Positions 7,533 through 62,335 of a DNA stretch of 64,000 nucleotides are shown here, one piece after another. Numbering within the stretch: the first letter of the stretch is position 1; the number at the start of each line of letters is the position of its first letter. This stretch comes from Cyanidioschyzon merolae (lineage: Eukaryota): the NCBI GenBank assembly GCA_000091205.1, contig AP006491.2; one strand, 5' to 3'. Both the position numbers and the translations under genes were made by a program. Below the pieces are notes generated by a model. The model was given only the letters and a program-made list of their open reading frames with translations, did no database searches and had not been told where the DNA came from.

Positions 7533-8696
7533 ATGCTCGTTTCGAGTACAGTTTTCGCTAACCACAAGGGCGGATGCGGCAAGTCGGTCCTGTTATTCCA
7601 GTCCGCTGCGGAGTACGCGCTGGCGCACCCTGATCAGCACGTACTGGTCGTGGACATGACCGTGGTTGGCGACCTGACGCGTCTTTTCCTCGGCGGAGAC
7701 TCGTTTGAGCGCTCTTCATCGGTAAGTTTGAGCGACTTTGTGGCTGTCCACGGAGGCACAACCAAACTCCTCTTTGATTGCCTCGCGTTCGAGCTGGGGT
7801 TCCAGTCCGGGGCGCTGCGCGAGACTGCGACCACAGCGAGTGGGAGCAGCGGCAGTGGCCCGCTCTCCTTCGTGAGTCGTTTGCGGCAGACGTTTGGCGG
7901 TGGCACGGGCAGTGAGGACAAGAGCGCTGGTGGCAGCGGAGGTGCCTACCGTTTCCCTGTGGAAAAATACCTGCTTCGTGTCGCAGACGTCAATACACAC
8001 ATTCCTGCAAATATCTACCTATCCATGTCGAGCGGTGGTGGATCCCAGCATCCGTTCCGGCTCACTGAGCGCCTCACTGTGGTCCAGGGCCTTCGCCGCG
8101 CTTTCCAGCAAGCGCCCGCCTCGTATAAGGTTCTGTTCGATACCGACGGCGACCTGCACTTCTCCGACTATACCCGGATCGCTATTGGTGTCGCAGACCA
8201 TTTGGTGGTGCCACTCTTCCCCTCGTTTACGGACTTCCACCGCGTCGAGACGTTTATGGAGGAGCTCTTCCAAATGCGTCAGAACGGAGAGACTGACGCC
8301 AAGGTACAGCTCATGGTCTGGAACAATGTCGATGTGCACTACAATCGGCCATGGTTGCCGGTATCCCGAAACGTGACGCCCACCAAGGCAGCTCAAACGG
8401 TGATTGAGAAACTCAACTCGCTACTGGCTGGGGTCGCAGCTCAGTATAGTACGCTTTTCGTGCAGCCCATTCCGGATAATGCAAGCCCCGTGGAAGCCAG
8501 TGAGCACTTTTCGGAAACGAGCTCCATGATCATGCGAACCTTCGGGGTAACCGGTATGGCTAGCGCGGATCTGGGCATTCCTTTTGCCTGCATGCAACCA
8601 GGCACTCTGACTGGTGGCGCCGTCGAGTACCACGTCAGCGCCGAAATGCTGGAGCTGCTACGCGCGAATGTGCGCGAGCTCGCCGATGTGCTCTGA
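7533..8696 (+). CDS. ParA/MinD-superfamily (SIMIBI) P-loop ATPase with deviant Walker A, unknown function
   Basis: ATG at 7533. N-terminal 'FANHKGGCGKSVLL' matches the deviant Walker A (xKGGxGK[ST]). 'HVLVVDMTVVGD' matches Walker A'. 'YKVLFDTDGDL' matches Walker B. No CxxC (NBP35/Mrp) or MinD-specific motifs. Confidence 0.6.
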   Translation: MLVSSTVFANHKGGCGKSVLLFQSAAEYALAHPDQHVLVVDMTVVGDLTRLFLGGDSFERSSSVSLSDFVAVHGGTTKLLFDCLAFELGFQSGALRETATTASGSSGSGPLSFVSRLRQTFGGGTGSEDKSAGGSGGAYRFPVEKYLLRVADVNTHIPANIYLSMSSGGGSQHPFRLTERLTVVQGLRRAFQQAPASYKVLFDTDGDLHFSDYTRIAIGVADHLVVPLFPSFTDFHRVETFMEELFQMRQNGETDAKVQLMVWNNVDVHYNRPWLPVSRNVTPTKAAQTVIEKLNSLLAGVAAQYSTLFVQPIPDNASPVEASEHFSETSSMIMRTFGVTGMASADLGIPFACMQPGTLTGGAVEYHVSAEMLELLRANVRELADVL

Positions 8697-9169: not shown

Positions 9170-9605
9170 ACAGCCCCCAGAGACTGGACTCTAGGATGGA
9201 CGTGACGCGCGGGTACCACTGGTACTGCTCGCAGCACCCGTCGCCTCTGTGTCCGGTAGTCTGTATCCTTGAAGATGGGCGCCCCCCAGAGACTGGACTT
9301 TAGGATGGACGTGACGCGCGGGTACCACTGGTACTGCTCGCAGCACCCGTCGCCTCTGTGTCCGGTAGTCTGCATCCTTGAAGATGGGCGCACCCCAGAG
9401 ACTGGACTTTAGGATGGACGTGACGCGCGGGTACCACTGGTACTGCTCGCAGCACCCGTCGCCTCTGTGTCCGGTAGTCTGTATCCTTGAAGATGGGCGC
9501 CCCCCAGAGACTGGACTTTAGGATGGACGTGACGCGCGGGTACCACTGGTACTGCTCGCAGCACCCGTCGCCTCTGTGTCCGGTAGTCTGTATCCTTGAA
9601 GATGG
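9170..9605. repeat. tandem repeat, ~109-bp unit x ~4
   Basis: Unit 'agactggact(c/t)taggatggacgtgacgcgcgggtaccactggtactgctcgcagcacccgtcgcctctgtgtccggtagtctg(t/c)atccttgaagatgggcgc(c/a)cccc' recurs at ~9181, 9291, 9399 and 9508. Confidence 0.9.
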
Positions 9606-9747
9606 GCGCACGCACGCACGCACGCACGCATACATACATACATACATACATACATACATACATACATACATACATACATACATACATACATACATACATA
9701 CATACATACATACATACATACATACATACATACATACATACATACAG
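9601..9747. repeat. microsatellite (CGCA)n followed by (CATA)n, ~31 units
   Basis: Direct reading: cgcacgcacgcacgcacgc followed by catacatacata... for ~125 bp. Confidence 0.95.
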
Positions 9748-17004: not shown

Positions 17005-20000
17005 ATGGGTACCCAGACTCTAGTGCCGGACGAGAAAAGCACGAATGCTACCATAACGTGCGTTCTGCGAGCCACGAACCGCTTTCGAGACTGCTTTGTT
17101 GCAGTGCCGTCGGCGCTGGCAGCGTTCCTTGAAAAGTCTCTGCCTCCTACCGGCAGTTCGACAACCAGCGCGGTGGCAGAGGCGCAACTCGCACGCACTC
17201 TCCAAGAACATGTCGTGCCGTTGCTTCTCAACAACCAGCTGTTGGTCGGCTGGCATCGTGGTCGTCTCTCTCGTACCATAGCTACACGGCTGCGTCCAGA
17301 GGTGGAGATCGCGTCGGAGCTTGCAGCATGCAACGGTCTGCTGGTGCGCGATGCCGCACCTGCCGTGTCGTCGACTGCGCAAACGACTACAGCAGCAGCA
17401 GCAGCAGCAGCAGCAGCGCCCGTGCACCGTAGAGCCTCTGCGGCGGCCAGACCGGACCTGCCAACAGCGTCACCGCCGCCCGGCGACAGCCGAACAAAGC
17501 CGGGGAACAGAGCATCCGCAGATGCCAGTCTGGAAACGGTGACTGTTCAAGTTTCCGTCGTACCCCGAAACGAACTGGAGATAGCGGAGCGTGTTATTCT
17601 CGAAGCGCTGGACGAAGAGAATTGGCAACGGCTGCACCAGCACCGAGAATGGATTGAGCGAGAGCTCCTGCGCCAACTCCGACTTGTACAATGGGATCAA
17701 TGCATCCCTATCTATCTAGTGGATCAGCCACAGCCTGTGCTTGTTACGGTGCGCCAAGTTCGCATCACCGAGACGGTCGCACTGAAGCAGCATTTGCTGG
17801 GCGCTGCCGGCACTCACAACTCGCTCGTGCAGGGATCCGTTCGTGGCTATTGGCTGAGTTTGGGCACTGAATTGGTTTTCGTTCCACCGGGCTGGGCTGC
17901 AGGCTCCGCGACTGACGACGACGGGAATGCGTCGCCGAACGCTGTCTCACACAACATGAAACCAGAGCTTCGGGTCCGCGTAGTACCAGCAGTTGGTGAA
18001 GTCGACGGTCCAGAGTGCCTGGGTGCAACGGGAACCGTCCACCCGGAGACGCTTATAGCCCTGGGCATGCCACGCAAGCAGTTGCTGGATACCAGTAGTA
18101 ACAGCAGCAGCAGCACCAAGACACCTGCAGCGTCGCTGGTGCTCGTGTGGGAGCCAGCGGATGCCGCTACAGATGCTCCGGGGTCAGTGGTGTTGTCTGT
18201 AACCGTCGATTCGAGCGTACCGCCCTTTCACGTTCGAACTGCATACGCACCGCCGTTCTGCTGGGCGCGGGCGCACGACCTCTGCGTTGGAACTGGCCGG
18301 GACTCCTCGGCTGCGTCCTCGATTCGACGCTACGACTGGGGCCAACTGCCTGTTGTGTACGGCAACCAGAGCGGCAAGCAACTGGTGGAATACCTTGTGG
18401 AAGCTTTGGAGCCAGTTTTTGCCGCATATCAAAGCACGCCGCCGGTTCGGTTTTCGCGCTTACAGGGACGCGTTGTGCTCCTCGGCGGTGCCGCTGGCTC
18501 CGGTAAGTCGCATGTCGCCTGGGCAATCGCCATGCATTGTAGCTTGCGCTGTCGTCTGCAACCACGGCCCGTGTACATCCCATGTCGCTCTATCTTCCAG
18601 TCTGGGGCGAGCTACCACAGCGAAGGGATCCGCCAGCTACTCGATGACCTAGTCGGAGGCATGGCTGGTCGACCCGCCGTTCTTGTACTGGACGATTTGG
18701 ATGCGCTTTTGGCTGACGAGACCGGTATCGCCAGCGCTGGAATAACGAACGCTTCCAGTGGACGGGCGCTGGGCTTGCCGAACCTCATGGAGCAGATTGC
18801 TGCCGTCCTGGAACGTTGCACACAGCTCGCCAACGTAGCCATCATCGTTACCGTGACGATGGAACGCGTAGGCACCGCTGCGGGACCGCTGCTCCCCGGC
18901 GGCATAAGCGGTGACGTGCTGGACACGCGACATGAACTTCCCTTGCCCAGCACTGAACAGGAGAAAAGTGCTTTTGCAGGTCGAGTACACGAGAGTGAAA
19001 TTGCCGATCTGCACACCCCGGCAGACTTGCTTAAAGTCGCGCTGCTTCGGAGCATCTTCAAAGATGAAGCAGAGGCGGTATCTGCAACCGGTGCCCTGCA
19101 GCCGCTGCTGGGCAACGCGCTGGTGACCCCGACGGATGTTGCCGGAACTGACCAACCGGTACTCGCGGATCTGGGCGGGCTCGAGAAAGCGAAAACCGTT
19201 CTCGTGGACACTTTCGTGCTACCACTACGCTTTCCAGTCATCTATCGCCAGGCACCGATTCGCTTACCAGCCGGTGTACTGCTCTACGGGATGCCGGGCA
19301 CGGGAAAGACGGCATTAGTGCAAGCCGCCGTTGCCGAAGCGGGCCTCCGGCTTGTGCACATCAAGGGTCCTGAGCTCCTGAACAAGTACGTGGGTGCCAG
19401 CGAAGCCTCCGTGCGAGCGCTCTTCTCCAAGGCACGACAGCAACGGCCTTGTGTGATCTTTTTCGATGAATTCGAAAGCCTTGCCCCGAAGCGAGGCGGG
19501 ACCGGTGAGCGCAGTACCGGCGTCACTGACCGCATCGTGAACGCTTTATTAACGGAAATGGATGGCGTTGAATCTCTGGACACTGGCGTGTTTGTGGTCG
19601 CAGCGACATGTCGCCCGGATCTGGTGGATCCTGCGCTGTTGCGGCCCGGACGTATTGATCAGTGGATTCGACTGGACCCGCCAGCGCACATGTCAGAGCG
19701 TCAAGCGATCCTCCAGCGGTGTACCCGGGACTGGTTCATCATCGATAGGCGCACTGGACAGCCACTTGATGACGCTCAGCGGGAAAAGCTGCTTGCGATG
19801 CTCGCGGAGCAAACATCTGGATCAACGGGAGCCGATCTGGCTGCGCTGTGCTCCTCGACGCTGATCTGCGCTGAGAAGCGCATGGCGGCAGAGGCAGCAT
19901 CGGGAACTGTGCTCGCTGCAGCAACGACTGCGAGCACACTGCACGTGACTGAACAACTTGTGGTGCTACCTGAGGACTTTACTGCAGCACTCAGTACGCA

Positions 20001-20121
20001 CCGCGTTTCGCTGCCTGCGTCGGAGCGTCAACTGTACCTCTGGGCTATGGCGCAGTTTGAGGGCAAGCGCGCCACCGACCAAGCCATGGACCATGGATCG
20101 AGACGCGTGATGTTGCAATAG
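17005..20121 (+). CDS. PEX1: peroxisome biogenesis factor 1 (PEX1) AAA-ATPase, two AAA domains
   Basis: ATG at 17005. N-terminal 'NRFRDCFVAVPSALAAFL' resembles the PEX1 N-domain ('NARDCFLHLP'). D1 Walker A 'GGAAGSGKSHVAWAIA' and degenerate Walker B 'LVLDDLDALL'. D2 Walker A 'GMPGTGKTALV', Walker B 'VIFFDEFESLAPKRG', SRH 'VVAATCRPDLVDPALLRPGRID'. 1038 aa. In-frame (GCA)n polyAla at ~17389-17417. Confidence 0.85.
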   Translation: MGTQTLVPDEKSTNATITCVLRATNRFRDCFVAVPSALAAFLEKSLPPTGSSTTSAVAEAQLARTLQEHVVPLLLNNQLLVGWHRGRLSRTIATRLRPEVEIASELAACNGLLVRDAAPAVSSTAQTTTAAAAAAAAAPVHRRASAAARPDLPTASPPPGDSRTKPGNRASADASLETVTVQVSVVPRNELEIAERVILEALDEENWQRLHQHREWIERELLRQLRLVQWDQCIPIYLVDQPQPVLVTVRQVRITETVALKQHLLGAAGTHNSLVQGSVRGYWLSLGTELVFVPPGWAAGSATDDDGNASPNAVSHNMKPELRVRVVPAVGEVDGPECLGATGTVHPETLIALGMPRKQLLDTSSNSSSSTKTPAASLVLVWEPADAATDAPGSVVLSVTVDSSVPPFHVRTAYAPPFCWARAHDLCVGTGRDSSAASSIRRYDWGQLPVVYGNQSGKQLVEYLVEALEPVFAAYQSTPPVRFSRLQGRVVLLGGAAGSGKSHVAWAIAMHCSLRCRLQPRPVYIPCRSIFQSGASYHSEGIRQLLDDLVGGMAGRPAVLVLDDLDALLADETGIASAGITNASSGRALGLPNLMEQIAAVLERCTQLANVAIIVTVTMERVGTAAGPLLPGGISGDVLDTRHELPLPSTEQEKSAFAGRVHESEIADLHTPADLLKVALLRSIFKDEAEAVSATGALQPLLGNALVTPTDVAGTDQPVLADLGGLEKAKTVLVDTFVLPLRFPVIYRQAPIRLPAGVLLYGMPGTGKTALVQAAVAEAGLRLVHIKGPELLNKYVGASEASVRALFSKARQQRPCVIFFDEFESLAPKRGGTGERSTGVTDRIVNALLTEMDGVESLDTGVFVVAATCRPDLVDPALLRPGRIDQWIRLDPPAHMSERQAILQRCTRDWFIIDRRTGQPLDDAQREKLLAMLAEQTSGSTGADLAALCSSTLICAEKRMAAEAASGTVLAAATTASTLHVTEQLVVLPEDFTAALSTHRVSLPASERQLYLWAMAQFEGKRATDQAMDHGSRRVMLQ

Positions 20122-20135
20122 GGAGGATGCACAGA

Positions 20136-20143
20136 AGGAAGGG

Positions 20144-20188
<45 letters not shown>

Positions 20189-20190
20189 GA
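20136..20190. repeat. (TTGC)n tetranucleotide microsatellite, ~12 units
   Basis: ggttgcttgcttgcttgc...ttgctg, immediately 3' of the PEX1 stop. Confidence 0.95.
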
Positions 20191-21009
20191 TGCTGCAGGC
20201 ACTCGAAAGCGAGGATGCGAGACCAGCGCACGTCCACTCTGGCTGTTCCGTTAGACCGCACTGGTACCGCGTACAGCGATGCACAGCCGGGTCACTGCTG
20301 CGTCGTCTCGTGTGCCCATACCATTCAGTTCGTCGCTGTGGTTATGAGGTTGACGTCCCGTTTCTGGGCTCTGAGCGCCGCGCTGTCAAGTAGGATGCGA
20401 CATCTGGAGCGCGCTCCGGGGTTATCTTTTACTGGGCCTCGCATGATTTTGGCGACCAATTTCCATCATCATGCAGAATCGATATCTGGTGGCTGGGGGA
20501 AACGATAACGCGAGCACTGCATCTCGCTTCGGATCTCATAAACGACATCGAAGCGGACGATACTGCACTCGTGTACGCGCGTGTATGTATCATAATGGCA
20601 GTAACCCACTGTATAACGATATCCGCAGCGCGCAGCACGACCGTCTAACGACCAGCGCGGCGCTTTGGAACGCACTCTACGAGAACGACGTCAAGTGACA
20701 GGTCCCGCCGGCCTGGTACAGGATACTTTGTGCAGCTGGTACACGCTCCAAGGCCAGATCAGTCTGCTTGGAACGAAGCCTCACCGATGGTCTGCATGCG
20801 CTGAACCAGTGAGCCTGTACCGACCTGGAGGCATCGAGAAGGTGCTGTATGCGATCGGCATGACCGAGTTAGACCAGGTGCGGGGAACCAGGTACTGCGG
20901 TCCGTGGCTTGCTCCAACGAAAGCACCGAAACCGGGACGATCCTGGGCTCATTCCACGCATCATTGACGAGCAAGGCGAGCTCCTCCTGGAGCCCGCTCC
21001 CGAGCGCCT

Positions 21010-22975
21010 CCCAAACAGATACATGGACACAGCTGGTACCCGAAACGTTCAGACGCCCAGAAGCATCCGGATATCTGCGCGCGGATATTGCCGGGAACCT
21101 CCTGCTTCAACGATACGCACTGCTTCAAGTTTGTAACGATTCCAAATGAATGCTCCTTGTTGACTCCATATGGGACAAACAGATACATGGACACAGCTGG
21201 TACCCGAAACGTTCAGACGCCCAGCAGCATCCGGATATCTGCGCGCGGGTATTGCCGGGAACCTCCTGCTTCAACGATACGCACTGCTTCAAGTTTGTAA
21301 CGATTCCAAATGAATGCTCCTTGTTGACTCCATATGGGACAAACAGATACATGGACACAGCTGGTACCCGAAACGTTCAGAGGCCCAGCAGCATCCGGAT
21401 ATCTGCGCGCGGATATTGCCGGGAACCTCCTGCTTCAACGATACGCACTGCTTCAAGTTTGTAACGATTCCAAATGAATGCTCCTTGTTGACTCCATATG
21501 GGACAAACAGATACATGGACACAGCTGGTACCCGAAACGTTCAGACGCCCAGAAGCATCCGGATATCTGCGCGCGGGTATTGCCGGGAACCTCCTGCTTC
21601 AACGATACGCACTGCTTCAAGTTTGTAACGATTCCAAATGAATGCTCCTTGTTGACTCCATATGGGACAAACAGATACATGGACACAGCTGGTACCCGAA
21701 ACGTTCAGACGCCCAGAAGCATCCGGATATCTGCGCGCGGGTATTGCCGGGAACCTCCTGCTTCAACGATACGCACTGCTTCAAGTTTGTAACGATTCCA
21801 AATGAATGCTCCTTGTTGACTCCATATGGGACAAACAGATACATGGACACAGCTGGTACCCGAAACGTTCAGACGCCCAGCAGCATCCGGATATCTGCGC
21901 GCGGGTATTGCCGGGAACCTCCTGCTTCAACGATACGCACTGCTTCAAGTTTGTAACGATTCCAAATGAATGCTCCTTGTTGACTCCATATGTGACAAAC
22001 AGATACATGGACACAGCTGGTACCCGAAACGTTCAGACGCCCAGAAGCATCCGGATATCTGCGCGCGGGTATTGCCGGGAACCTCCTGCTTCAACGATAC
22101 GCACTGCTTCAAGTTTGTAACGATTCCAAATGAATGCTCCTTGTTGACTCCATATGGGACAAACAGATACATGGACACAGCTGGTACCCGAAACGTTCAG
22201 ACGCCCAGAAGCATCCGGATATCTGCGCGCGGGTATTGCCGGGAACCTCCTGCTTCAACGATACGCACTGCTTCAAGTTTGTAACGATTCCAAATGAATG
22301 CTCCTTGTTGACTCCATATGGGACAAACAGATACATGGACACAGCTGGTACCCGAAACGTTCAGACGCCCAGAAGCATCCGGATATCTGCGCGCGGATAT
22401 TGCCGGGAACCTCCTGCTTCAACGATACGCACTGCTTCAAGTTTGTAACGATTCCAAATGAATGCTCCTTGTTGACTCCATATGGGACAAACAGATACAT
22501 GGACACAGCTGGTACCCGAAACGTTCAGACGCCCAGAAGCATCCGGATATCTGCGCGCGGGTATTGCCGGGAACCTCCTGCTTCAACGATACGCACTGCT
22601 TCAAGTTTGTAACGATTCCAAATGAATGCTCCTTGTTGACTCCATATGGGACAAACAGATACATGGACACAGCTGGTACCCGAAACGTTCAGACGCCCAG
22701 CAGCATCCGGATATCTGCGCGCGGGTATTGCCGGGAACCTCCTGCTTCAACGATACGCACTGCTTCAAGTTTGTAACGATTCCAAATGAATGCTCCTTGT
22801 TGACTCCATATGTGACAAACAGATACATGGACACAGCTGGTACCCGAAACGTTCAGACGCCCAGCAGCATCCGGATATCTGCGCGCGGGTATTGCCGGAA
22901 ACCTCCTGCTTCAACGATACGCACTGCTTCAAGTTTGTAACGATTCCAAATGAATGCTCCTTGTTGACTCCATAT
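21010..22975. repeat. satellite DNA, 164-bp monomer x ~12 tandem copies (>95% identity)
   Basis: Unit beginning 'cagatacatggacacagctggtacccgaaacgttcagacgcccag...' recurs every 164 bp from ~21017 to ~22821. The track's periodic 104-aa (+) and 77-aa (-) ORFs at 164-bp spacing are artefacts of this array. Confidence 0.95.
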
Positions 22976-23462
22976 GTGAATGTGTGTTTGCGTGCGCATG
23001 GCATGCATGCATCCGATTTTCCCCATCTTTACATATTTGTATCAATATGTTTCGGAGCATGTGCATGGACCGGCCTGCACCCTTCGCGTCCTCTACTCGC
23101 GTATACACGTAACCTTCTCACCGGTTATCCGTGAAGCCGTTTGTTCACGTCGACAGGAATCCTTCAGTCTGCGTATAAACGTATCGATATTTCAGTAGAT
23201 CTGTGTATCCATGCACGTGTGCAATCGGGCGGGAAAAGCTTCAGGGGCACCACGATACCGAGCTCTTGCGTTACGATGGTACAAAAAGAGTCCTGGTCTG
23301 ATGCTTGCGCCGCACGTTTGAAGACGTACGGTATTCAAGCGATTCCTACAAAATACAGGCGAACGAACGAACGAACGAACGACCTAATTTTACTGGGAAC
23401 AGCTCCGGGTTCCATATCAAGGCATGCGTTATGTGCGCACTAGACAAGCGTATCGGGCGGTC

Positions 23463-24758
23463 TCACCAGACTCCGGGGAGGAGCACGTAGGGAACAGCTT
23501 CGCAGTAGGCGCGCCACGCGGCGCCATACTTTTGTCGACAGCGAGCTTCATCACGCTGACTTCGGTGAATCAAAAGCAGCAGTAAATAGAAAAAATATAT
23601 AAACGCAACAAAACGGTACGCTCCGCCAAGCGTCGGCATGCTGAACGCCAGTGCAAGCAGCAAATCTCCGAGGTAGTTCGAGTGACGGGCTACACTCCAC
23701 CAACCAGAGGCTAAAAGTCGACCGCCACCAAAGGTGCGATTCACGGCTTTGGTTGCGGTTCCATGCGTCACACCCGTCTGGGACGTCTCGCGCTCGAGGC
23801 GGTGCCAACGAGGTATGCCGCGCGACCAGCTGACGAACCAGCTGCTAACTGGTCGCTGAGAGTCCCTCTTGAAAGCATCTTTCTGCGAGTTTGCAGAGCG
23901 GAAAATCCATCCACCAAGCACTACGGTAATCAGCGTGCCCAGCAAAAGCCCTACCGACATACGCCGTTGATCGTGCACCAGACACCACGCTGGAGTACTG
24001 AAAACGAACGGGATGAACACCAGGTCGCCCCAGATCAACATCAGACCAAAATGTTCCGCAACAATATCCCAAGTCGTGGTCATCTTGCTCTCGTGCCAAA
24101 AGTAGTCCAGGATGTAACCATTCATGATCAGCTGCGTCAGCAGCATGCGCGTTGTTACACGGCCTAGAGCGTGCCACTGCTTGGCAGCAATGGAGAGGTT
24201 GAGCAACATCCAACCGATCATCGATGGCCGTAGCCAGAAAAACTTGAGCTCAAACCGACCCAAGTGCGGGTTCAGTTCGGCACCGAGAATAAAGTCTCGC
24301 AGCCAAGACCGCTGACTGGGTCCGGTGCTCGCGGAGGCCCGCGATCGCCAACGCTGGCGAAGCAGCAACAACGTGGCAAGACTCCATGCCAGCAGGTTTG
24401 CTGCCGCCAGAAACGCACCCACGTTATCCGCAAGATAGGACCAGGTCCAAGCGCCCAGCCCAGAGCCCAGAGCAGCCCATATCGCCACCGTAGACCCCAG
24501 CACAGCGAGACCGTTGCACTTGTAGTGAATGCGCTTAGAGCCATCCGCGGGAATCGTTCCCGGGTAGACCCAACCGGGAAGCGCTTCGCTCAAAAGGGCA
24601 AGAACACCAATGTAAACGAGCAGCTGGAGCGTTGCCAGGGAAACGTTTCGAAAAGTAAGCGAGCAGCCCAGCTCCCGGGCCGCTACAACAAACCAGCGCC
24701 AGTCGCAGGCGAGGGCCAAACCCACGACAGCAACCAAGAGGGCGTAGGTCAGTGCCAT
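23463..24758 (-). CDS. DHCR7: 7-dehydrocholesterol reductase-like sterol reductase (ERG4/ERG24 family)
   Basis: Sterol-reductase C-terminal signature 'LLASGWWSVARHSNYLGDLLLALAFS'. 'LLNLSIAAKQ' and 'RPSMIGWM' resemble DHCR7. Multi-TM, 431 aa. The track start at 24761 is TTG; ATG at 24758. Confidence 0.85.
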   Translation of the reverse strand: MALTYALLVAVVGLALACDWRWFVVAARELGCSLTFRNVSLATLQLLVYIGVLALLSEALPGWVYPGTIPADGSKRIHYKCNGLAVLGSTVAIWAALGSGLGAWTWSYLADNVGAFLAAANLLAWSLATLLLLRQRWRSRASASTGPSQRSWLRDFILGAELNPHLGRFELKFFWLRPSMIGWMLLNLSIAAKQWHALGRVTTRMLLTQLIMNGYILDYFWHESKMTTTWDIVAEHFGLMLIWGDLVFIPFVFSTPAWCLVHDQRRMSVGLLLGTLITVVLGGWIFRSANSQKDAFKRDSQRPVSSWFVSWSRGIPRWHRLERETSQTGVTHGTATKAVNRTFGGGRLLASGWWSVARHSNYLGDLLLALAFSMPTLGGAYRFVAFIYFFYLLLLLIHRSQRDEARCRQKYGAAWRAYCEAVPYVLLPGVW

Positions 24759-25610
24759 CAACGCTCTGATGTTCGTGACTTGAGCTCAGGGGGCAGACGC
24801 TGCACCCGACTTGCTGGTACTCGCGTCACCCTGCCCAGTGAAGTACGCACCGCACAAGAGGGGCGCTGCGGACGACTCCAACGTCCACAGGATACCGCAC
24901 AGGGGTACCGCTCGGTAAGAGCGAAACGTCCAAGTACAAGAGTGCCTCTACAACTGGAACACGACAAGCAACCTCAACGTTCACGTACGACTGCCGCACG
25001 GAACGTTCCAAGGACGTCTCGGTGAAGCCAATGACTTGGAGTCGAGGTCGTGCGGCGGACGCCAGCGTCGACAGAACGCTGCCGAGCGCACCAGCAACGC
25101 CCGAGGAGACCGACTCAGAAGCGACGCAACTTTAGAAGCAAGCTGTAGACGTCCGGAACTAGTCTGGCTCAGTGCTTAACGAACGGAAGTCTCGTGCGCG
25201 TCCAGAAACATCTGGTTAGACGGACGAACTCTAGACTCTAAAAAGACCGGGAGAAAGCTTGAGAAGAACCCCAGTCTGAAGGACACCTTCTCGCTTTGAG
25301 ACGACGCTGGTGGTGGTGCAGTACCTGAGCCAAGGGCTCTTCGAGCAGGTAACGCGGACACCAGAGACCAGAGGCTGTGCGCTTGAACGTTTAGGTAAGG
25401 GCGCTGCCTCTGATCCCGAGTCTGAGTCCGGGATCACCGAGCAGCAAGCCTGTACTGGACTTGGCGCCCGGGACGTGCCACTGCACAAGCACCGTCCAGC
25501 GCTTCAAACAACAGCACGGTGCCCAGGCTACAGAATTGCATTGTGTATTTGGTTTCGAAACGGCCGGGTAGCAACGCACCCGGCGCTTGGCTGATGACTG
25601 GTTGCGGGGA

Positions 25611-29511: not shown

Positions 29512-30519
29512 CTAAGCGGCAAGCACGTACTTACCCAGAAGTATTCCCAGTAAAATCGCCATCACAAGTTGCACCCACGGTAGGATGAGTAGCGTTGGAT
29601 GTGGTGAGGCACCCAACGCGCCCGTGCTCGAACTCTTGAGCAAGCGGCTGGCGCTCTCGAGTCGCGACTTGAGCAGGGCCACCTCTGCCTGACTCCGCGC
29701 CAGCTCGCGCCGCAGTCGAGCCGTCTCCGACTCTTCTCGTGTCTCCGTCTCTGTCATGTGATCCGGGGTGATTGCTGCTGCTGCTGCTGCTGCTGCTTTC
29801 GACTGCTCCGTTGCAGCATCGTCCCAGTGCACAGAGGGCGCCGCCGCTGAACCACCACCCGCCCCGACACCTGCCATCCGTACCGCGTCACCGTCGAGGC
29901 GCTCGCTTGCTTGCGCGCTCGCCGATGCCGGCGGTGTGCCTGCATCCATACCAGAGGCCGCTGACTTGCCTCCACTGTCCACGGACTGCGACATTCGCGC
30001 TCGGTAGCTCTGGAGCATATTCTCCAAAGTATCCTGATTAAACAGGAACTCACAGCGAAACTTTTGTTCGAAAACCTCCTCACGATCAACGGTATCGAAC
30101 AGACCCGCGTCGAAGGACCGGTTTTCCAGTAACAAGCCTTGGATTAAAAACTTATCCTCGAGTTCCTTGCTGAGCTCCTGTTTCAGACCGTCATAGGTGA
30201 GCACGTCGGCAGCGGGTGTGGCGCTGGTGGCGTCGCCACCGCTCGAGCGGCTCTCCGCCTGCCGTACCAACGCGGCGCACGCGTCCGCAACCACTCGCTT
30301 TAGCGGTTGTAGCTGCACCTGAAGGTCAAGCGTCTCTCCGGGTGCTAGTTTTGCCGCGTTTGGCTTGACACAGTAGCGCTTCGGACGCGTTGTTTTGACC
30401 TTGAACCCCACGTGATCGTTCGCCTCGTTGCGAAGCTTCAGCGTGAGCAGTGTCGGTTTCTCCAGTGAGTCTATATGGAACGTAAACCGCGTCTCAGACA
30501 CGTTCAAAATACGATCCAT
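29512..30519 (-). CDS. VAMP-associated protein (VAP/Scs2 family): MSP domain + coiled coil + C-terminal TM anchor
   Basis: ATG at 30517-30519. MSP signature 'GFKVKTTRPKRYCVKPNAAKLAPGETLDLQVQLQP' (VAP consensus FKVKTTAPRRYCVRPNSG). Coiled-coil 'RLRRELARSQAEVALLKSRLE'. C-terminal TM 'LILPWVQLVMAILLGILLGKYVLAA'. Confidence 0.8.
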   Translation of the reverse strand: MDRILNVSETRFTFHIDSLEKPTLLTLKLRNEANDHVGFKVKTTRPKRYCVKPNAAKLAPGETLDLQVQLQPLKRVVADACAALVRQAESRSSGGDATSATPAADVLTYDGLKQELSKELEDKFLIQGLLLENRSFDAGLFDTVDREEVFEQKFRCEFLFNQDTLENMLQSYRARMSQSVDSGGKSAASGMDAGTPPASASAQASERLDGDAVRMAGVGAGGGSAAAPSVHWDDAATEQSKAAAAAAAAITPDHMTETETREESETARLRRELARSQAEVALLKSRLESASRLLKSSSTGALGASPHPTLLILPWVQLVMAILLGILLGKYVLAA

Positions 30520-30667: not shown

Positions 30668-30809
30668 ATTGCAGCAGCGCCCTGGGGGTGGCGCGGCGGC
30701 AGCGCGCACTGCATCGCGCGATGCATCGATGCTGATTCGGGGCGAGGGGGTGGCGGCGGCGGCGGCGGCACAGCGGAGCATCGCGCGCGATTTTTCGTAC
30801 GATAGTGGG

Positions 30810-32170
30810 TCTCGGATGGATGTTTTTCAGGAGAAAACGTTTCCTTAGGCCAGCGTTCTCCGATTATGCGCATTTTTCTTTTCTTTTTGGGTTTGTTTTC
30901 AGTGCGCGGTGAGGTATCCACCGAATGCTCTACCTCCAAGTTACATTACCTAAGAAGGTCTCGGATGGATGTTTTTCATGGAGAAAACGTTTCCTTAGGC
31001 CAGCGTTCTCCGATTATGCGCATTTTTCTTTTCTTTTTGGGTTTGTTTTCAGTGCGCGGTGAGGTATCCACCGAATGCTCTACCTCCAAGTTACATTACC
31101 TAAGAAGGTCTCGGATGGATGTTTTTCATGGAGAAAACGTTTCCTTAGGCCAGCGTTCTCCGATTATGCGCATTTTTCTTTTCTTTTTGGGTTTGTTTTC
31201 AGTGCGCGGTGAGGTATCCACCAAACGCTCTACCTCCAAGTTACATTACCTAAGAAGGTCTCGGATGGATGTTTTTCATGGAGAAAACGTTTCCTTAGGC
31301 CAGCGTTCTCCGATTATGCGCATTTTTCTTTTCTTTTTGGGTTTGTTTTCAGTGCGCGGTGAGGTATCCACCAAATGCTCTACCTCCAAGTTACATTACC
31401 TAAGAAGGTCTCGGATGGATGTTTTTCATGGATAAAACGTATCCTTATGCCAGCATGCTCCGATTATGCGCATTTTTCTTTTCTTTTTGGGTTTGTTTTC
31501 AGTGCGCGGTGAGGTATCCACCGAATGCTCTACCTCCAAGTAACATTATCTAAGAAGGTCTCGGATGGATGTTTTTCATGGAGAAAACGTTTCCTTAGGC
31601 CAGCGTTCTCCGATTATGCGCATTTTTCTCTTCTTTTTGGGTTTGTTTTCAGTGCGCGGTGAGGTATCCACCAAATGCTCTACCTCCAAGTTACATTACC
31701 TAAGAAGGTCTCGGATGGATGTTTTTCATGGAGAAAACGTTTCCTAAGGCCAGCGTTCTCCGATTATGCGCATTTTTCTTTTCTTTTTGGGTTTGTTTTC
31801 AGTGCGCGGTGAGGTATCCACCGAATGCTCTACCTCCAAGTAACATTATCTAAGAAGGTCTCGGATGGATGTTTTTCATGGAGAAAACGTTTCCTTAGGC
31901 CAGCGTTCTCCGATTATGCGCATTTTTCTCTTCTTTTTGGGTTTGTTTTCAGTGCGCGGTGAGGTATCCACCAAATGCTCTACCTCCAAGTTACATTACC
32001 TAAGAAGGTCTCGGATGGATGTTTTTCATGGAGAAAACGTTTCCTAAGGCCAGCGTTCTCCGATTATGCGCATTTTTCTTTTCTTTTTGGGTTTGTTTTC
32101 AGTGCGCGGTGAGGTATCCACCGAATGCTCTACCTCCAAGTAACATTATCTAAGAAGGTCTCGGATGGAT
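30810..32170. repeat. satellite DNA, 150-bp monomer x ~9, with 300-bp (dimeric) higher-order structure in the distal half
   Basis: 'tcggatggatgtttttcatggagaaaacgtttccttaggccagcgttctccgattatgcgcatttttcttttctttttgggtttgttttcagtgcgcggtgaggtatccacc(g/a)aatgctctacctccaagttacattacctaagaaggtc' recurs at 30812, 30961, 31111 and so on. Alternating variants (ccgaatgc/ccaaatgc; taagaagg/tcTaagaagg) give the 300-bp period seen in track ORFs at 31565 and 31865. Confidence 0.95.
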
Positions 32171-32499
32171 GATGGATTCTGCATTGCGCGATGGATACCG
32201 GTAAACAAGTTCCATGACCTATGCTTCCACACGGATGTCCTGATCGTATTACATGGAACGGGTCCAGGTTCGTGACTCGGACGTACTCGCGGAGGTGTGG
32301 CTCTGTTTCGACGTTCATCGGCACGAGTCTCTCTGTGGGATTTTTATGTGTGAATGCCTCCTCTTCGGTTCGATCATCTGCAGCCTGAAGTATTCCGGTC
32401 GATCCATTTCGTCTGGTGCTATTATCAGACGCCAAATGATCGTGATGGCAGCGTTCAAGTCCCGTTGTCTCTGTTCTTTGTTGTTGTGCACGCATTACC

Positions 32500-35550: not shown

Positions 35551-36289
35551 TGTCGTTCCCTCGGAGCTGTGCACAAAACACCGAACACTTTTGAAATGCT
35601 AGCAACTTTAGAAGCAACTGCAGAGGCGTTCACCACAATGTCAACGGAAGCCGCTACCCGCGAACGGTGATGGCGCTCTTGCCGGCAAAGCGCCTCCGTC
35701 AAAACGCCGCCATCACCGCTGACGCGCGTCGCCATCTCCATCGACACGCCATCGATCGCCAAGATCTTACACCACGCAGCGGCCTGCGTTACCCCGAGCT
35801 GGGCGCTTGGTATCAGTGCACGGTGTAGCATCCATCGACCGACGCCCAAGCCCCATAACCGATACTTCTGCTCGGATATACTGGTTGCTTTGTAGGTTCT
35901 ATCGTGCGCCAAGTGTGTGTCGTGAGCGTCCGCGGCAGCGCCCATAGCGCCGGTGCGGTCGCTGCACGGAGACAGAACATCGTTTCCGTACCACTGAGGG
36001 CGTCGGATCAAGGAATGCTACGCCTGACACGGACTCGGGGCTGGTTATCATTCTGGGAGCCTGCAAGCTACACATACAGAAATACTGCCTGGGGAAGCGC
36101 GAAAAATGATATGCTTGGAGTCCACTAGGAACAACGCGACGCCCAAACGCACACGAAACACCTCCAGTCCCAGAATGAAATGCCTTGCGTACGAGTTGCT
36201 CAGATCTCGCTGAAGCGTCCGTCGCTGGGCAAATCATGAAGCACAATCCTGGTAACTCGTCCGGCTCGCAGGAGCTTCCGCCTAGGAGA

Positions 36290-39105
36290 TAAACTTTCGG
36301 CAATGCGGAAAGCTTTTCGACTTTTAAAGATAACCGTGGTGGCGGAAAGAAATCCTTTTCTCGTTATTACTAGGTGTCTAGTTTCTGTTCTTTTTTTCTA
36401 AAGTGCGCTCGATACGCGCACCTCTATATCTGGCAGGCATCAGACACGACGCGCATGCCGCCGTTGAAGGAAAACGCTATTCTGATCCTTCGCGTGTTGT
36501 TCTAAACTACAAGATGCATTTGCGTTAGAGCCCCAGCAAAGTATAGATTTTAGTTCTAGTGTGTTTCAACCCTAAGATTAACGTATGCAAGAGTTTTTCG
36601 CGGTTTATAACGGAAGCGTTCAAAATGCGTTCATTTTCAAAAATCAACATATACAGGAATTTTATGGGGATGCAGGTCGAGGACCCTGGGAGCACCGCTG
36701 TCGCCGACTGCCGGAAGAAAACCAAAACCAATGCCGAACCCAGAGGAACAAGACGACACCAAGGAGCAAAAGCGTGAGGCTCGGCGTCAGAAGCTGCGAG
36801 AAAGTCGACACTACCACGAGATAATTGTGAACGCATGTCTACTTGGACATACCAAGAATCCGTACAAGGAAAGGTTGCGGGACGCCATCAGAAACCGTAA
36901 CGAGTCGTACTCCAGGGGCATTATAAAGGCTTCGTCAGGGCTGATGCATTCGGTGGAGACGTATCGCGACGTGACGCACATCAAAACAGTCGAGGTTCCG
37001 GAGGAGGTTTTCGACAGGACCTTCATTAGGCACCTAATGCTTGGCAGAGAAGGAACCTCGATGAGAAATGAGCGAGTGCATGCCCTCCATGAAAACTGCG
37101 GCGAACAGCGCTTCAACGGTACTCGGTACGGCGAGAACTGGAAGATTTGCTGGTACGGGACGATGGAGTACCTCAGGAACCTGAAGAACCATTTGAACGT
37201 GAACCTCGGACGTTTCATGATACGCTCTATTTTTTTCGCTGTATCCGGGTCTCTCTCGCAAAGGGATATGGATCATCATCGATGGCATCTTTAACGATCG
37301 TAAGAATGAAGAGGAGATCGACTTTGGCGACTAGTAGACATCACGCTGGAGAAGGAATGCGGCTTCTGTAATCCGTACGGCTATTCAAGAGCACCGTGCG
37401 GTCTTGGCGCTGGCGAATCCAGTAGAAAAGATATCAGAGTTGAAAAAAGATGAAATGTACGTTATGCCCTCATCCTCCGCAATTTCGTGTTTTTGGACCG
37501 AGAACTCGAACGCAAAGCGGAGCTGAAGCTGAGTGAGTGGACAAATGACGAATCGGAGACACGGAAGGGTGCCCTAATGGGGAAGCGCTTCAACGTCGTT
37601 CCGTTGTGCAACATCAAGTCGCACTTTGTGAGTATCGACTCTGGCGTCCTTTACTGCATCAAGAAGGAGATCTGTCCGGAGTTCGATGTAAGGAAGATAG
37701 AGTTCACCGGCGAGAACCGGGAGACGTGCTGGAAGATCATCTTCGATTTCAAAAGTGTCAGATTGCGCAAGAAAACGGTATGCACTGGGATTATCGAAAG
37801 CGAATGGGTATGCATATGTGTTCACAACAGGCGCTTGAAGGTAAATCATCTTGTTCCGTCTTCGTTGGCGCCCTCGGCGAAGCGTGAAGAAAACAACGAG
37901 ACGCGCTCTGGAACACATGATCCGCAGGAGAGCGACTCTGTCGCTGGCGCGGACCCTGGGAATACGAACATCGTGACCATCGCTGCACCTTTTGTTGGGT
38001 AGATGGCAATGACCGCAACCTACGTCAGAAAGACATGCGTGTTCTAAAGTTCTCAGGAGCGAGGTACTATCGAGAATCGGGAATAATGAATGCGAGGAAG
38101 AAAACAGAGAAATGGAACGCAGAAGTGCAAGAGCACCTGGTAGCGATCAGCCAGGTGACGAAGCGCGGAGCGAACTTTCGAGCTTTTCTGGAGTTCATGA
38201 AAATTCTTGCTGCTGATGACGAGGCGCATTGGAAAGCGTATCCAAAAGCCCAGGTAAGCCCGTCAGCGTTTGAATCTGTACAGAGGGAAGCAGCGTACAT
38301 TCGTCACCTTTTCAATGAGTTGAGCGCCCTCAAAGAGCATGAAAGTCAAAGGCTCGTGGTGGCAAACTGAGCAGGGCGTCGGGTGCCCTGCCCAAAGGGT
38401 GTACACCAGCCCCGTCGACATGAGCGTACAACGAATGCGCACAGCGTTTTCACACCATACCGATGGATGAGTTCCGAGCATCCTATACACACCATGCATT
38501 GGGTTGTACGCTTCAGAGGGTCGATATGGAAAAGTGTCAGCGGAGCCCTGAGGGTGTAAAAAAGTCCGGAGCGCTGACGGTACAGCGAATGGAACCGAGG
38601 GCGCAAGTTCGAGGACTGCTTGCATTCGTAAGTACAAGCAATGATGGCAAGAAACGTATGCAGTTTGTGAACCAAGACTTTCATGCCGCTATCAATACCA
38701 GACGAGGAGTTTTCATGAACATGAGACCCGCAGCGCAGACAGAATCCAACTTTGTGGGGCCACCTCCCAAAGCTGCGTTCTACAAGGAGAAGCTGAAACC
38801 GACAGCGGACGGCGGGTCCATGAAAAACGCTACGAGCCGTCTGTTTGTGGGCGCACCAGTACACCGCACATAGGCGCGAGACATTTTTTGCTCTGCAGGT
38901 CACATATATTGGCGCTCATCAAACGTCGAGGCTGGATATCTACATCAAATTCGCAAAAAATACTCAAGACAGGAACAGAGCGAGCAGATGCATGTTCCAG
39001 TTTAGACAAAAGCGAAAGTAGGGTGCTGCGCGCTCGACCACTCGTCTACCGGTATACGAGTCCGAGGAACGAGCCTGCACCGGGGAAAGCTCGTGCCAAA
39101 ACAAC
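36290..39105. mobile_element. AT-richer (~48-50% GC by eye versus ~58-60% around it) inserted island carrying TnpB/Fanzor-like ORFs; putative transposon or Fanzor-associated element
   Basis: Abrupt composition shift. All substantial ORFs (36731-37294, 37487-38002, 38035-38370, 38463-38873) are on the + strand, opposite to both flanking host genes. The block lies between the DnaJ-ZnF gene and the UBA1 3' end. Confidence 0.55.
36731..38873 (+). pseudogene. TnpB/Fanzor-like RuvC nuclease, split over 4 ORFs in 3 frames (pseudogene or intron-containing gene)
   Basis: RuvC-I-like 'VAGADPGNTNIVTIA' at the end of ORF 37487-38002 (TnpB/Fanzor consensus (I/V)DxGxxNxxT; Fanzors often 'IDPG'). 'RVYTSPVD' (the YTS motif that precedes the Zn finger in TnpB) at ~38395-38420 in another frame. 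RuvC-III-like 'FVNQDFHAAINTRRG' (consensus DxNAAxNIxxxG) at ~38680-38725. Order and ~240-aa spacing fit TnpB. The Zn-finger cysteines are degenerate. GT-AG-like sites 'CAGgtaagc' at 38250 and 'gtaag' at 37306. Confidence 0.45.
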
Positions 39106-59429: not shown

Positions 59430-60582
59430 TCGAAGTCGCAAGCAGTCACCGGGATCTGTGTTAGAGTACCTCGCTTTATTGGCGTGTTTCCGTGCGCGCA
59501 CAGTAGTACCGGGGAGCCAGCATATCTGCAGACCAGCTGCGTTCACCCTGTGGTGTACGAACGCACTCGCACAACGCATCTTGAATCGGACGCGGGCAGA
59601 AGCAGTTGCAGAGGCAGGCGCTAGCGCCGCGCCCGACCGGGCCACAATGCAGCCGCGCCAGCTTACCTCGACACCAGTCCAGTGGCAGTATCCTAGCCCG
59701 TGGCAACCCCGGAATCGACCCGCTTCCATCCTGTGTACGTCCAGCCACGCAAATGGCTTTTTTGCTCGACGCTCGAATCGGTTTCACAAGTCGTCTGTGA
59801 ACGCTCACACACCAACGGGCAAGATTCGATGCTGCGTACGCGCTCGATCAGCGCCGGAGCGGCCACGCTGAAAGGCGTCGAGCGCCCAGCACGGCCAGCG
59901 ATCTTCCGAATAAGATGAGACATAACTTCCATATACGGACCGTACCTGTTGCGGGGCATCGCGAGGCCCGCAGCAATGCTCCCCCACTAGACCGACGTTG
60001 ACGAAGGGGATCACAAAAATGCACCACCCAAGAGGTTGTGGTGCAGAATCCAAGCACCCGTTTCATTTGATGGCTTGTCAGCGCGGAGAGTGCTGCTTTC
60101 CGGCGTGCACACGGGCCCGTGTTTCACCGCTGAGCCTCTAAACGATCCGCTCGCGCGCGCACACACATACACACCCCAGGGCTGGGAGCGTGCCGGCATT
60201 GCTGCATGCATGGGTGCATGCCTGTCAGTGCCGCTTTGGATGCACGCATGAAAGATTTTGGTGTTACATCGGAATTGCCGACTATAGCTACCGGGAGGAC
60301 GCTCCGGTGTGTGCTCCAGTCTAGCGGTATCTTGCGCTTTACCGCCAGTGTAACTAACCTGTTCTGTCTGGTTCGTCGCGAAGGTGCAAAACCAGTCATG
60401 AGAGCGAGCGAGCGAGCGCATTGGAAGCGACTCGGACACCGGCGCCGCACGCCCGTTTCACTTGCAGCCCATGCATCCTGCACCGAGGAACAGCGGCTGT
60501 CATCTCAGCAGCGAGCACCGTCTCGATCACGCAGCGCAGCCATGCATCGGTTGATGCGGCTTGTAACTCTGCCCACATATAC

Positions 60583-61744: not shown

Positions 61745-62335
61745 AGGGAATTCAAGTTCCAAAGAGTCAGCGAACCGAATCCGAGAAGACCACCAAACAT
61801 CCTCGAACGACTTGCAGGTCAGGAAACCCTCATTGCCGGACTTGGAATGTCGAGGCCGCACGCTTAGAATGTGCCCTGGAAAGATGCTCAAGGCCAGGAG
61901 CAGTGCGATAAGTCCAGGGCAGCAACTTCAGGTAGAACAGGTTCACAAGTTCCAAAGAGTCAGCGAACCGCATCCGAGAAGACCACCAAACATCCTCAAA
62001 CGACTTGCAGGTCAGGAAACCCTCATTGCCGGACTTGGAATGTCGAGGCCGCACGCTTAGAATGTGCCCTGGAAAGATGCTCAAGGCCAGGAGCAGTGCG
62101 ATAAGTCCAGGGCAGCAACTTCAGGTAGAACAGGTTCACAAGTTCCAAAGAGTCAGCGAACCGAATCCGAGAAGACCACCAAACATCCTCGAACGACTTG
62201 CAGGTCAGGAAACCCTCATTGCCGGACTTGGAATGTCGAGGCCGCACGCTTAGAATGTGCCCTGGAAAGATGCTCAAGGCCAGGAGCAGTGCGATAAGTC
62301 CAGGGCAGCAACTTCATGTAGAACAGGTTCAAATG
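61745..62335. repeat. tandem repeat, 193-bp unit x 3
   Basis: 'gttccaaagagtcagcgaaccg(a/c)atccgagaagaccaccaaacatcctc(g/a)aacgacttgcaggtcaggaaaccctcattgccggacttggaatgtcgaggccgcacgcttagaatgtgccctgg...' at ~61757, 61950 and 62143. The track ORFs with 193-bp spacing on both strands are artefacts. Confidence 0.9.

What the first reader, a model, noticed from the sequence alone, without database searches (positions are those of the whole stretch)
21010..22975. Nucleosome-sized (164-bp) 12-copy satellite between convergent PEX1 and DHCR7 genes
The array is highly homogeneous (a few SNPs per unit such as ggg/gtg and cag/aag), so it is young or actively homogenised. The unit length is close to a nucleosome repeat. 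The array fills the gap between two convergently transcribed genes. In compact algal genomes such arrays are uncommon. It may mark a centromere-proximal or subtelomere-like domain, or it may be a genome-wide satellite family.
Basis: seen in the sequence. Interest (0 to 1): 0.5.

Follow-up and report, generated by a model that had tools for sequence, protein, structure and literature searches.

The report
Single-locus 164-bp intergenic tandem repeat

Summary
Window 21012..22979 holds exactly 12 head-to-tail units of 164 bp. The units are about 99% identical, differ at only 5 columns, and the array has sharp edges.

The window is Cyanidioschyzon merolae 10D chromosome 9, a red alga. The flanking genes are convergent: PEX1, and a gene annotated as C-14 sterol reductase rather than DHCR7.

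- **Single locus.** Every other copy of the unit I recovered lies at this same site with identical junctions. These are 15 distinct wild metagenome contigs, 96-99% identical in the spacers.
- **Copy number in wild relatives.** The contigs show 1 unit, 2 units, or end inside the array. Short-read collapse cannot be excluded.
- **Not exceptional locally.** The window holds three other, unrelated long-unit arrays (109, 150 and 193 bp), so neither the array nor its "nucleosome" length stands out.
- **No functional signal.** There is no 10-bp WW periodicity, RNA family, coding potential, telomere repeat or GC dip relative to neighbouring spacers.
- **Published centromeres.** C. merolae centromeres are described as single, short, low-GC and without a repeat pattern.

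Unit variants are shared with wild copies and fail the four-gamete test. This fits ongoing unequal exchange or gene conversion.

Verdict: a locus-specific long-unit minisatellite of low interest.

The parts
21012..22979 (.). Tandem array of 12 complete 164-bp units. GC is 50.5%. Five columns vary (43, 50, 74, 84, 162).
   Evidence: TRF, unit table, sequence, pairwise identity.
21012..21175 (.). First unit, joined directly to the left spacer (...GAGCGCCTCC|CAAACAG). Every wild contig that spans this junction has it identical. In many of them the first unit carries A at column 7.
22816..22979 (.). Last unit, joined to the right spacer (...CCATATGTGA|ATGTGTGTTTG). It carries T at column 162, as does the terminal unit of every wild contig. 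Interior units 6 and 11 also carry T162.
20122..21011 (.). Non-repeat spacer of 890 bp between the PEX1 stop and the array. GC is 57.8%. Identity to wild relatives is 97.6-99.4%.
20144..20188 (.). (TTGC)11 microsatellite starting 23 nt after the PEX1 stop codon. Two wild contigs end inside it.
22980..23462 (.). Non-repeat spacer of 483 bp between the array and the sterol reductase stop. GC is 49.9%. Identity to wild relatives is 97.9-98.8%.
17005..20121 (+). PEX1 (AAA ATPase, 1038 aa). Exact match to BAM79937 / XP_005536223 of C. merolae 10D.
23463..24761 (-). ERG4/ERG24-family sterol reductase. The annotated protein of 431 aa starts at 24758. Exact match to BAM79938, "probable C-14 sterol reductase".

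Best explanation
This is a locus-specific, non-coding, long-unit minisatellite (a VNTR-type tandem repeat). It lies in the 3'-3' spacer between PEX1 and the C-14 sterol reductase gene on chromosome 9 of Cyanidioschyzon merolae 10D.

A 164-bp stretch of ordinary spacer DNA was duplicated head to tail without detectable microhomology at the junction. The resulting direct repeats then became a substrate for unequal sister-chromatid exchange, replication slippage and gene conversion. These processes expand and contract the array and keep shuffling a handful of old unit variants. The units therefore stay about 99% alike.

The array most likely has no sequence-specific function.

Shown: the array, its exact boundaries, its restriction to one locus in all data searched, the presence of unit-to-unit junctions in wild relatives, and the sharing and recombination of unit variants.

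Inferred: the recombination mechanism, the neutrality, and any real copy-number difference between 10D and wild strains.
For: - Twelve exact units with sharp edges.
- No other copy in the window.
- All 15 distinct wild contigs that carry the unit carry it at this same site, in the same phase and with identical junction sequences.
- Six contigs traverse with 1 unit and six with 2 units. Three end inside the array, at or after a unit-to-unit junction.
- Variants at columns 43, 50, 74 and 162 are shared between 10D units and wild copies. Columns 50 and 74 show all four allele combinations.
- The unit differs from wild copies about as much as the neighbouring spacers do: 97.6-99.4%, against 99.0-99.9% for coding sequence.
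- Stop codons occur in all six frames and the unit-derived ORFs have no Pfam hit.
- No Rfam family or tRNA was found.
- The single-strand fold is no better than shuffles, z = -0.3.
- Three other unrelated long-unit arrays lie in the same 64 kb, so this is a recurrent and unspecialised kind of sequence in this genome.
Against: - The complete 16.5-Mb 10D genome could not be searched here, so single-locus status rests on the window, 15 wild contigs and an exact 40-mer scan that would miss diverged copies.
- Copy number in wild strains is unresolved, because short-read assemblers collapse such arrays. The 150-bp array also appears as about 1.1 copies in wild contigs.
- No chromatin, transcript or CENH3 data could be overlaid, so a function is unproven rather than excluded.
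Confidence: 0.85

Rival explanations
1. Functional cis element. The array acts as a terminator or insulator between the two convergent genes, as a nucleosome-phasing array, or as a nucleation site for H3K27me3 repressive chromatin.
For: The array lies between two convergent 3' ends. H3K27me3 covers about half of the annotated repetitive elements in C. merolae (PMC5405695). The unit contains a short palindrome (CCGGATATCTGCGCGCGGATAT...) and a duplicated CTGCTTCAA motif.
Against: - Another convergent pair in the window (DUF3769 gene and VAP gene) manages with a 783-bp spacer and no array.
- Wild relatives are assembled with 1-2 units.
- There is no 10-bp WW periodicity.
- The periods of the four arrays differ widely.
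- The flanking genes (locus tags CMI023-CMI028) do not occur in the three held supplementary files of the H3K27me3 paper; I did not check whether those files list the target genes.
- The unit diverges like neutral spacer.
Confidence: 0.06
2. Centromeric or pericentromeric satellite of chromosome 9.
For: The array is 2 kb, gene-free and has GC 50.5%. This is close to the published description of C. merolae centromeres as 2-3 kb with mean GC 48.4% against 55% genome-wide.
Against: - Published centromeres are one per chromosome with "no other apparent pattern", meaning not satellite-based.
- The GC is the same as the non-repeat right spacer and as several other intergenic stretches in the window at 31-34 kb and 36-39 kb.
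- The monomer is locus-specific.
- The prior is about 1 in 100-200 intergenic spacers on the chromosome.
Confidence: 0.02
3. Member of a dispersed or subtelomeric satellite family, or a transposon-derived tandem array.
For: Several long-unit arrays cluster in this 64-kb window, making up 6.8% of it.
Against: - The four arrays share no sequence similarity beyond a chance 10-mer.
- There is no second monomer copy in the window or in any wild contig outside this site.
- There is no telomere repeat.
- There are no Pfam or transposon signatures.
- Subtelomeric elements are at most 20 kb, whereas locus tag CMI023C places the window tens of kilobases inside the chromosome.
Confidence: 0.03
4. The copy number of 12 is partly an assembly artefact of the 10D reference. 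The array is real but the count is wrong.
For: The array is 2 kb of 99%-identical units, longer than a Sanger read. Wild short-read assemblies show only 1-2 units or break inside the array.
Against: The reference was finished from BAC and plasmid clones to "100% complete" (PMC1955436). The irregular order of unit variants gives assembly anchors and is not what a padded artefact would look like. This rival changes only the count, not the nature of the feature.
Confidence: 0.04

Closest known systems
Minisatellites / VNTR loci with interspersed unit variants (for example human MS32-type loci, analysed by minisatellite variant repeat mapping)
   Same: It is a single-locus, head-to-tail, non-coding array. 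A few variant unit types are interspersed along it. The terminal units are distinct. There is evidence of exchange between units.
   Different: The unit of 164 bp is longer than the classical 10-100 bp. Copy-number polymorphism between individuals is suggested but not proven, because the wild contigs are short-read assemblies. The organism is haploid and divides mitotically in culture, so sister-chromatid rather than meiotic exchange is the likely driver (inference).
Nucleosome-length centromeric satellites (human alpha satellite of 171 bp, Arabidopsis 178-bp repeat; from established knowledge)
   Same: The unit length is in the 150-180 bp range and the units are highly homogeneous.
   Different: The array is only 2 kb, sits at one locus, lies between active genes and shows no higher-order repeat. 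C. merolae centromeres are described as non-repetitive low-GC regions. CENH3 binding was not testable here.
C. merolae regional centromeres (Kanesaki 2015 and Maruyama 2008, as cited in 10.1101/096016 and PMC11005252)
   Same: Similar size (2-3 kb) and GC slightly below the genome mean.
   Different: Those regions are reported to have no apparent sequence pattern. This region is a perfect tandem array whose GC matches ordinary spacers.
C. merolae subtelomeric homologous elements and the interspersed WSV486-like repeats (Nozaki 2007, PMC1955436)
   Same: They are repetitive DNA in the same genome.
   Different: The subtelomeric elements reach up to 20 kb, carry genes and are shared between chromosome ends. 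The WSV486-like repeats are about 3.2 kb, dispersed in 253 copies and carry a truncated ORF. The 164-bp unit is tandem, has no ORF, sits at one locus and is internal to the chromosome.

Membership tests
Minisatellite / VNTR (locus-specific tandem repeat) | Head-to-tail tandem units of tens to a few hundred bp with high identity | tested here: met
   164 bp x 12.0 copies, 99% matches, no indels.
Minisatellite / VNTR (locus-specific tandem repeat) | Confined to one genomic locus | tested here: met
   There is no other copy in the window. All 15 distinct wild contigs that carry the unit are syntenic. Limit: the whole 10D genome was not searchable.
Minisatellite / VNTR (locus-specific tandem repeat) | Copy number varies between individuals or strains | tested here: inconclusive
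   10D has 12 units. Wild contigs show 1 or 2 units or break inside the array. Short-read collapse cannot be separated from real variation.
Minisatellite / VNTR (locus-specific tandem repeat) | Interspersed unit variants reshuffled by exchange between units | tested here: met
   The four-gamete test fails for columns 50 and 74. Variants are shared with wild copies. Terminal-type T162 units occur in the interior at units 6 and 11.
Centromeric satellite | Bound by CENH3 and located at the centromere | not testable with these tools
   The chromosome 9 CENH3 coordinates (Kanesaki 2015) are not in the held library. Secondary sources say the centromeres have no repeat pattern.
Centromeric satellite | The same monomer family forms large arrays, usually on several chromosomes | tested here: not met
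   A single 2-kb array. The monomer was found nowhere else.
Subtelomeric repeat | Lies next to telomere repeats or within the terminal duplicated elements (at most 20 kb in C. merolae) | tested here: not met
   AATGGGGGG repeats are absent from the window. The window starts near locus CMI023C, so about 22 loci lie between it and the chromosome end. Element size is from PMC1955436. The distance in kilobases is inferred, not measured.
Nucleosome-positioning repeat | About 10-bp periodicity of WW dinucleotides, and a unit length tied to the nucleosome repeat length | tested here: not met
   WW periodicity power is 0.56 against a shuffle mean of 0.65, and 53% of shuffles score as high. Neighbouring arrays have periods of 109, 150 and 193 bp. 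The nucleosome repeat length of C. merolae was not found in the literature.
Structured RNA gene or protein-coding repeat | Match to an RNA family or stable fold, or an open reading frame through the units | tested here: not met
   Rfam gave 0 hits at E<=1 and ARAGORN found 0 tRNAs. Fold z = -0.3. 164 is not a multiple of 3 and stops occur in all six frames. No Pfam hit.

The most novel reading that the evidence does not exclude
The array is a fast-evolving VNTR that has really expanded from 1-2 units in natural Cyanidioschyzon populations to 12 units in the laboratory strain 10D. Its size would then affect local chromatin (for example H3K27me3 deposition or nucleosome phasing), or 3'-end formation and transcriptional interference between the convergent PEX1 and sterol reductase genes. 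On this reading, the several long-unit arrays in this "simplest" eukaryotic genome would form a class of rapidly mutating regulatory spacers.
Probability: 0.05. Interest if true: 0.4.

Novelty: new member of a known kind. Interest (0 to 1): 0.13.

Why it matters
It matters little for biology. It is one more intergenic minisatellite in a genome whose complete sequence has been public since 2004/2007.

It has some practical value:
- It is a candidate VNTR marker for typing Cyanidioschyzon strains and populations. The unit-variant maps differ between 10D and the wild contigs.
- It is a caution that short-read metagenome assemblies of this alga collapse or break at such arrays.
- It corrects the impression that this minimal genome lacks tandem arrays. 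Four long-unit arrays occupy 6.8% of this 64-kb window.

Tried and rejected
- **Six-frame ORF query.** I used a 409-aa six-frame translation of the unit to exploit the 5.8-billion-protein collection as an index of unit-containing contigs. It returned nothing. It also missed a known positive control, the ORF cluster P0065-P0069 that overlaps the unit. That result is therefore uninformative.
- **Shorter ORF query.** A 133-aa query recovered two ORF clusters, both at this locus. It again missed the control cluster, so the method is not exhaustive.
- **Exact look-up of unit ORFs.** This found only ORFs anchored in the right flank, which are locus-specific by construction.
- **PEX1 contig look-up.** An exact-sequence look-up of the 10D PEX1 protein found no contig on record. 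The sterol reductase protein was used instead.
- **Kanesaki 2015.** The paper with centromere coordinates is not in the library. A Hi-C / centromere literature search gave no coordinates for chromosome 9.
- **Gene-ID searches.** Searches for CMI023-CMI028 in paper texts and in the three held supplementary files of the H3K27me3 paper gave nothing.
- **Literature searches.** No nucleosome repeat length for C. merolae was found. No description of non-telomeric minisatellites in Cyanidioschyzon turned up among the titles and abstracts returned.
- **Structure and sequence tests.** The Rfam gathering scan of the whole window, the E<=1 scan of the spacer (20100..23500), ARAGORN, the DNA fold and the periodicity test were all negative.
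- **Trypanosomatid strand-switch region.** I considered this early because of the long intronless ORFs. I rejected it once gene orientation was seen to alternate and the organism was identified.
- **DHCR7 versus ERG24.** I ran no further search on this. The public annotation and the best matches among solved structures both say delta-14 reductase. No phylogeny was made.

Full report
**1. The observation**

Tandem Repeats Finder reports a 164-bp period, 12.0 copies, 99% matches, no indels and score 3846 at 21012..22976. Cutting the sequence in register gives exactly 12 complete units at 21012..22979. Only 13 bases differ from the consensus, all at five columns (43, 50, 74, 84, 162). Mean pairwise identity between units is 98.97%.

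The edges are abrupt: the 164 bp on each side are 20-23% identical to the consensus, which is chance level. There is no partial unit and no microhomology at either junction.

**2. Where the window comes from**

- The left gene (17005..20121, +) is identical to BAM79937, [quoted passage not shown].
- The right gene (23463..24761, -) is identical to BAM79938, "probable C-14 sterol reductase".
- Their accessions are consecutive, so no protein gene is annotated between them.

Pfam assigns the right gene to ERG4_ERG24. Its only matches among solved structures are delta(14)-sterol reductases. The PEX1 label holds, and the DHCR7 label is unverified and probably wrong.

The genes are convergent, as stated. 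The array takes up 59% of the 3341-bp spacer, 890 bp from the PEX1 stop and 483 bp from the reductase stop.

**3. Whether the monomer occurs elsewhere**

Inside the window no other copy exists. The best off-array match is a 20-bp chance hit.

The sterol reductase protein is encoded, identical in sequence, on many metagenome contigs. Ten of these were fetched (L001-L010). They are collinear with the window and 98.6-99.3% identical over the long alignments of the four loci compared.
- Each carries the 164-bp unit at the same site, in the same phase and with identical junction sequences.
- Six carry one unit and four carry two.

An exact scan of the metagenome contig collection used an invariant 40-mer from the unit. 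It found only two contigs. One was already known. The other (L012) ends inside the array after 2.4 units.

Two further contigs, reached through a PEX1 variant, end 1.3 and 1.02 units into the array. A protein-level search with unit-derived ORFs found two more contigs, again at this locus, with two units each.

Every recovered copy, on 15 distinct wild contigs, therefore lies at this one locus.

There are two limits. The full 10D genome could not be searched. The exact 40-mer and ORF methods would also miss diverged copies, and the ORF method demonstrably missed a positive control.

**4. Age and homogenisation**

Variants at columns 43, 50, 74 and 162 that distinguish units within 10D also distinguish the wild copies. 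These polymorphisms are therefore older than the split between 10D and the wild lineages, whose spacers differ by 0.6-2.4%.

Within 10D, columns 50 and 74 occur in all four combinations. This requires exchange between units, or recurrent mutation.

T at column 162 marks the terminal unit next to the right flank in 10D and in every wild contig, yet it also appears in interior units 6 and 11. Only one variant in 1968 bp is absent from every wild copy (column 84, unit 12).

Unit-to-unit junctions exist in at least nine wild contigs. The picture is an old array kept uniform by turnover, not a newly born one.

Whether wild strains really have fewer units cannot be decided. These are short-read assemblies, and several break exactly at the array. 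The neighbouring 150-bp array is likewise reduced to about 1.1 copies in wild contigs.

**5. Tests of the proposed meanings**

*Centromere.* Secondary sources citing Kanesaki 2015 and Maruyama 2008 describe one 2-3 kb CENH3 region per chromosome, with GC 48.4% against 55% genome-wide and "no other apparent pattern". [quoted passage not shown] The array's GC (50.5%) is no dip. It equals the adjacent unique spacer (49.9%) and other intergenic stretches at 31-34 kb and 36-39 kb.

*Subtelomere.* There is no AATGGGGGG repeat in the window. The gene at 7533..8696 is CMI023C, so about 22 numbered loci lie between the window and the chromosome end. At about 3.5 kb per protein gene this is several tens of kilobases (an inference). 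The subtelomeric homologous elements reach at most 20 kb.

*Nucleosome length.* The unit has no 10-bp WW periodicity, with 53% of shuffles scoring as high. The other long-unit arrays in the window have periods of 109, 150 and 193 bp. No nucleosome repeat length for this alga was found.

*Rarity.* Four unrelated long-unit arrays make up 6.8% of this 64-kb window. They are 109x4 at 9174..9609, 164x12 here, 150x9.1 at 30808..32171 and 193x3 at 61753..62331. They occur in convergent spacers as well as tandem ones.

**6. Tests for a hidden gene or element**

- Rfam gave no match at gathering thresholds over the whole window, and none at E<=1 over the spacer.
- ARAGORN found no tRNA.
- Single-stranded folding is no better than shuffles, z = -0.3.
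- 164 is not a multiple of three, and every frame on both strands has stops.
- The longest unit-derived ORFs have no Pfam match.
- The unit contains only a short GC-rich palindrome and a 9-bp motif repeated 18 bp apart.
- It diverges from wild copies at the same rate as the flanking spacers and faster than coding sequence.

**7. Explanation**

The best-supported reading is a single-locus, long-unit minisatellite. A 164-bp piece of ordinary 3' spacer was duplicated. The direct repeats then expand, contract and homogenise by unequal sister-chromatid exchange, replication slippage and gene conversion.

The array, its boundaries, its locus specificity, the wild unit-to-unit junctions and the recombined shared variants are shown. 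The mechanism of turnover and the lack of function are inferred.

Rivals:
- A cis-acting role between the convergent genes, or as an H3K27me3 target. H3K27me3 covers about half of the annotated repeats in this alga (PMC5405695). The flanking gene IDs do not occur in the held supplementary files of that paper.
- A centromeric satellite.
- A dispersed or subtelomeric family.
- A miscounted reference assembly.

None has positive evidence.

**8. Novelty and score**

The sequence has been public since the 2004/2007 genome papers. Ensembl runs Tandem Repeats Finder on this genome (PMC11050394). I found no paper that describes this array, or non-telomeric minisatellites in Cyanidioschyzon. It is a new member of a well-known kind. 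Interest is low. The main uses are as a strain-typing marker and as a warning about collapsed tandem arrays in metagenome assemblies of this alga.

Noticed in passing
window 30808..32171: A second large array of 150 bp x 9.1 copies at 97% identity. It is T-rich and has the lowest GC in the window (43-44%). It lies between the 5' end of the VAP-like gene (29512..30519, -) and the next gene. Wild contigs L001 and L002 show it as about 1.1 copies. It is unrelated in sequence to the 164-bp unit. By composition alone it would be a better low-GC candidate than the array under study, but nothing else points to a centromere.
   Followed up: partly
window 9174..9746: An array of 109 bp x 4 copies (98% identity, GC 61.5%), followed 20 bp later by a perfect (CATA)29.5 microsatellite. 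Both lie in another convergent spacer, between CMI023C and the CNNM-domain gene.
   Followed up: no
window 61753..62331: An array of 193 bp x 3 copies (98% identity), about 2 kb upstream of the tyrosine-tRNA ligase gene (57633..59729, -). It is unrelated to the other arrays.
   Followed up: no
window 20144..20188; L015 and L016 ends: A (TTGC)11 microsatellite starts 23 nt after the PEX1 stop codon. Two wild contigs terminate inside a longer (TTGC)n run at the same place, so it is probably length-polymorphic.
   Followed up: partly
window 7533..8696 (+): The ORF is 387 aa from its first ATG, and identical 387-aa proteins are called on many metagenome contigs. GenBank CMI023C (BAM79935) is annotated as 346 aa. 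The annotated start may be too far downstream. JGI names the protein a BcsQ (ParA/MinD-like) ATPase.
   Followed up: no
window 17005..20121 and wild PEX1 proteins P0002-P0015: PEX1 length varies from 1035 to 1039 aa among wild relatives that are more than 90% identical. A (CAG)9 run at 17390..17417, which encodes a poly-alanine tract, is a likely source. This was not checked.
   Followed up: no
window 36000..39100: A stretch of about 3 kb with no ORF of 250 aa or more, GC about 48-52%, and consistently positive GC and AT skew. Its content is unknown.
   Followed up: no
L018 99..262: The terminal unit in this more divergent wild contig carries 10 differences from the consensus, mostly G-to-T, within 260 bp of the contig end. 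They look like assembly or sequencing errors rather than real divergence.
   Followed up: partly
tool behaviour: The word-indexed protein search failed twice to return a cluster (P0065-P0069) that shares 40 identical consecutive residues with the query. Negative results from that tool with short ORF queries should not be read as absence.
   Followed up: yes
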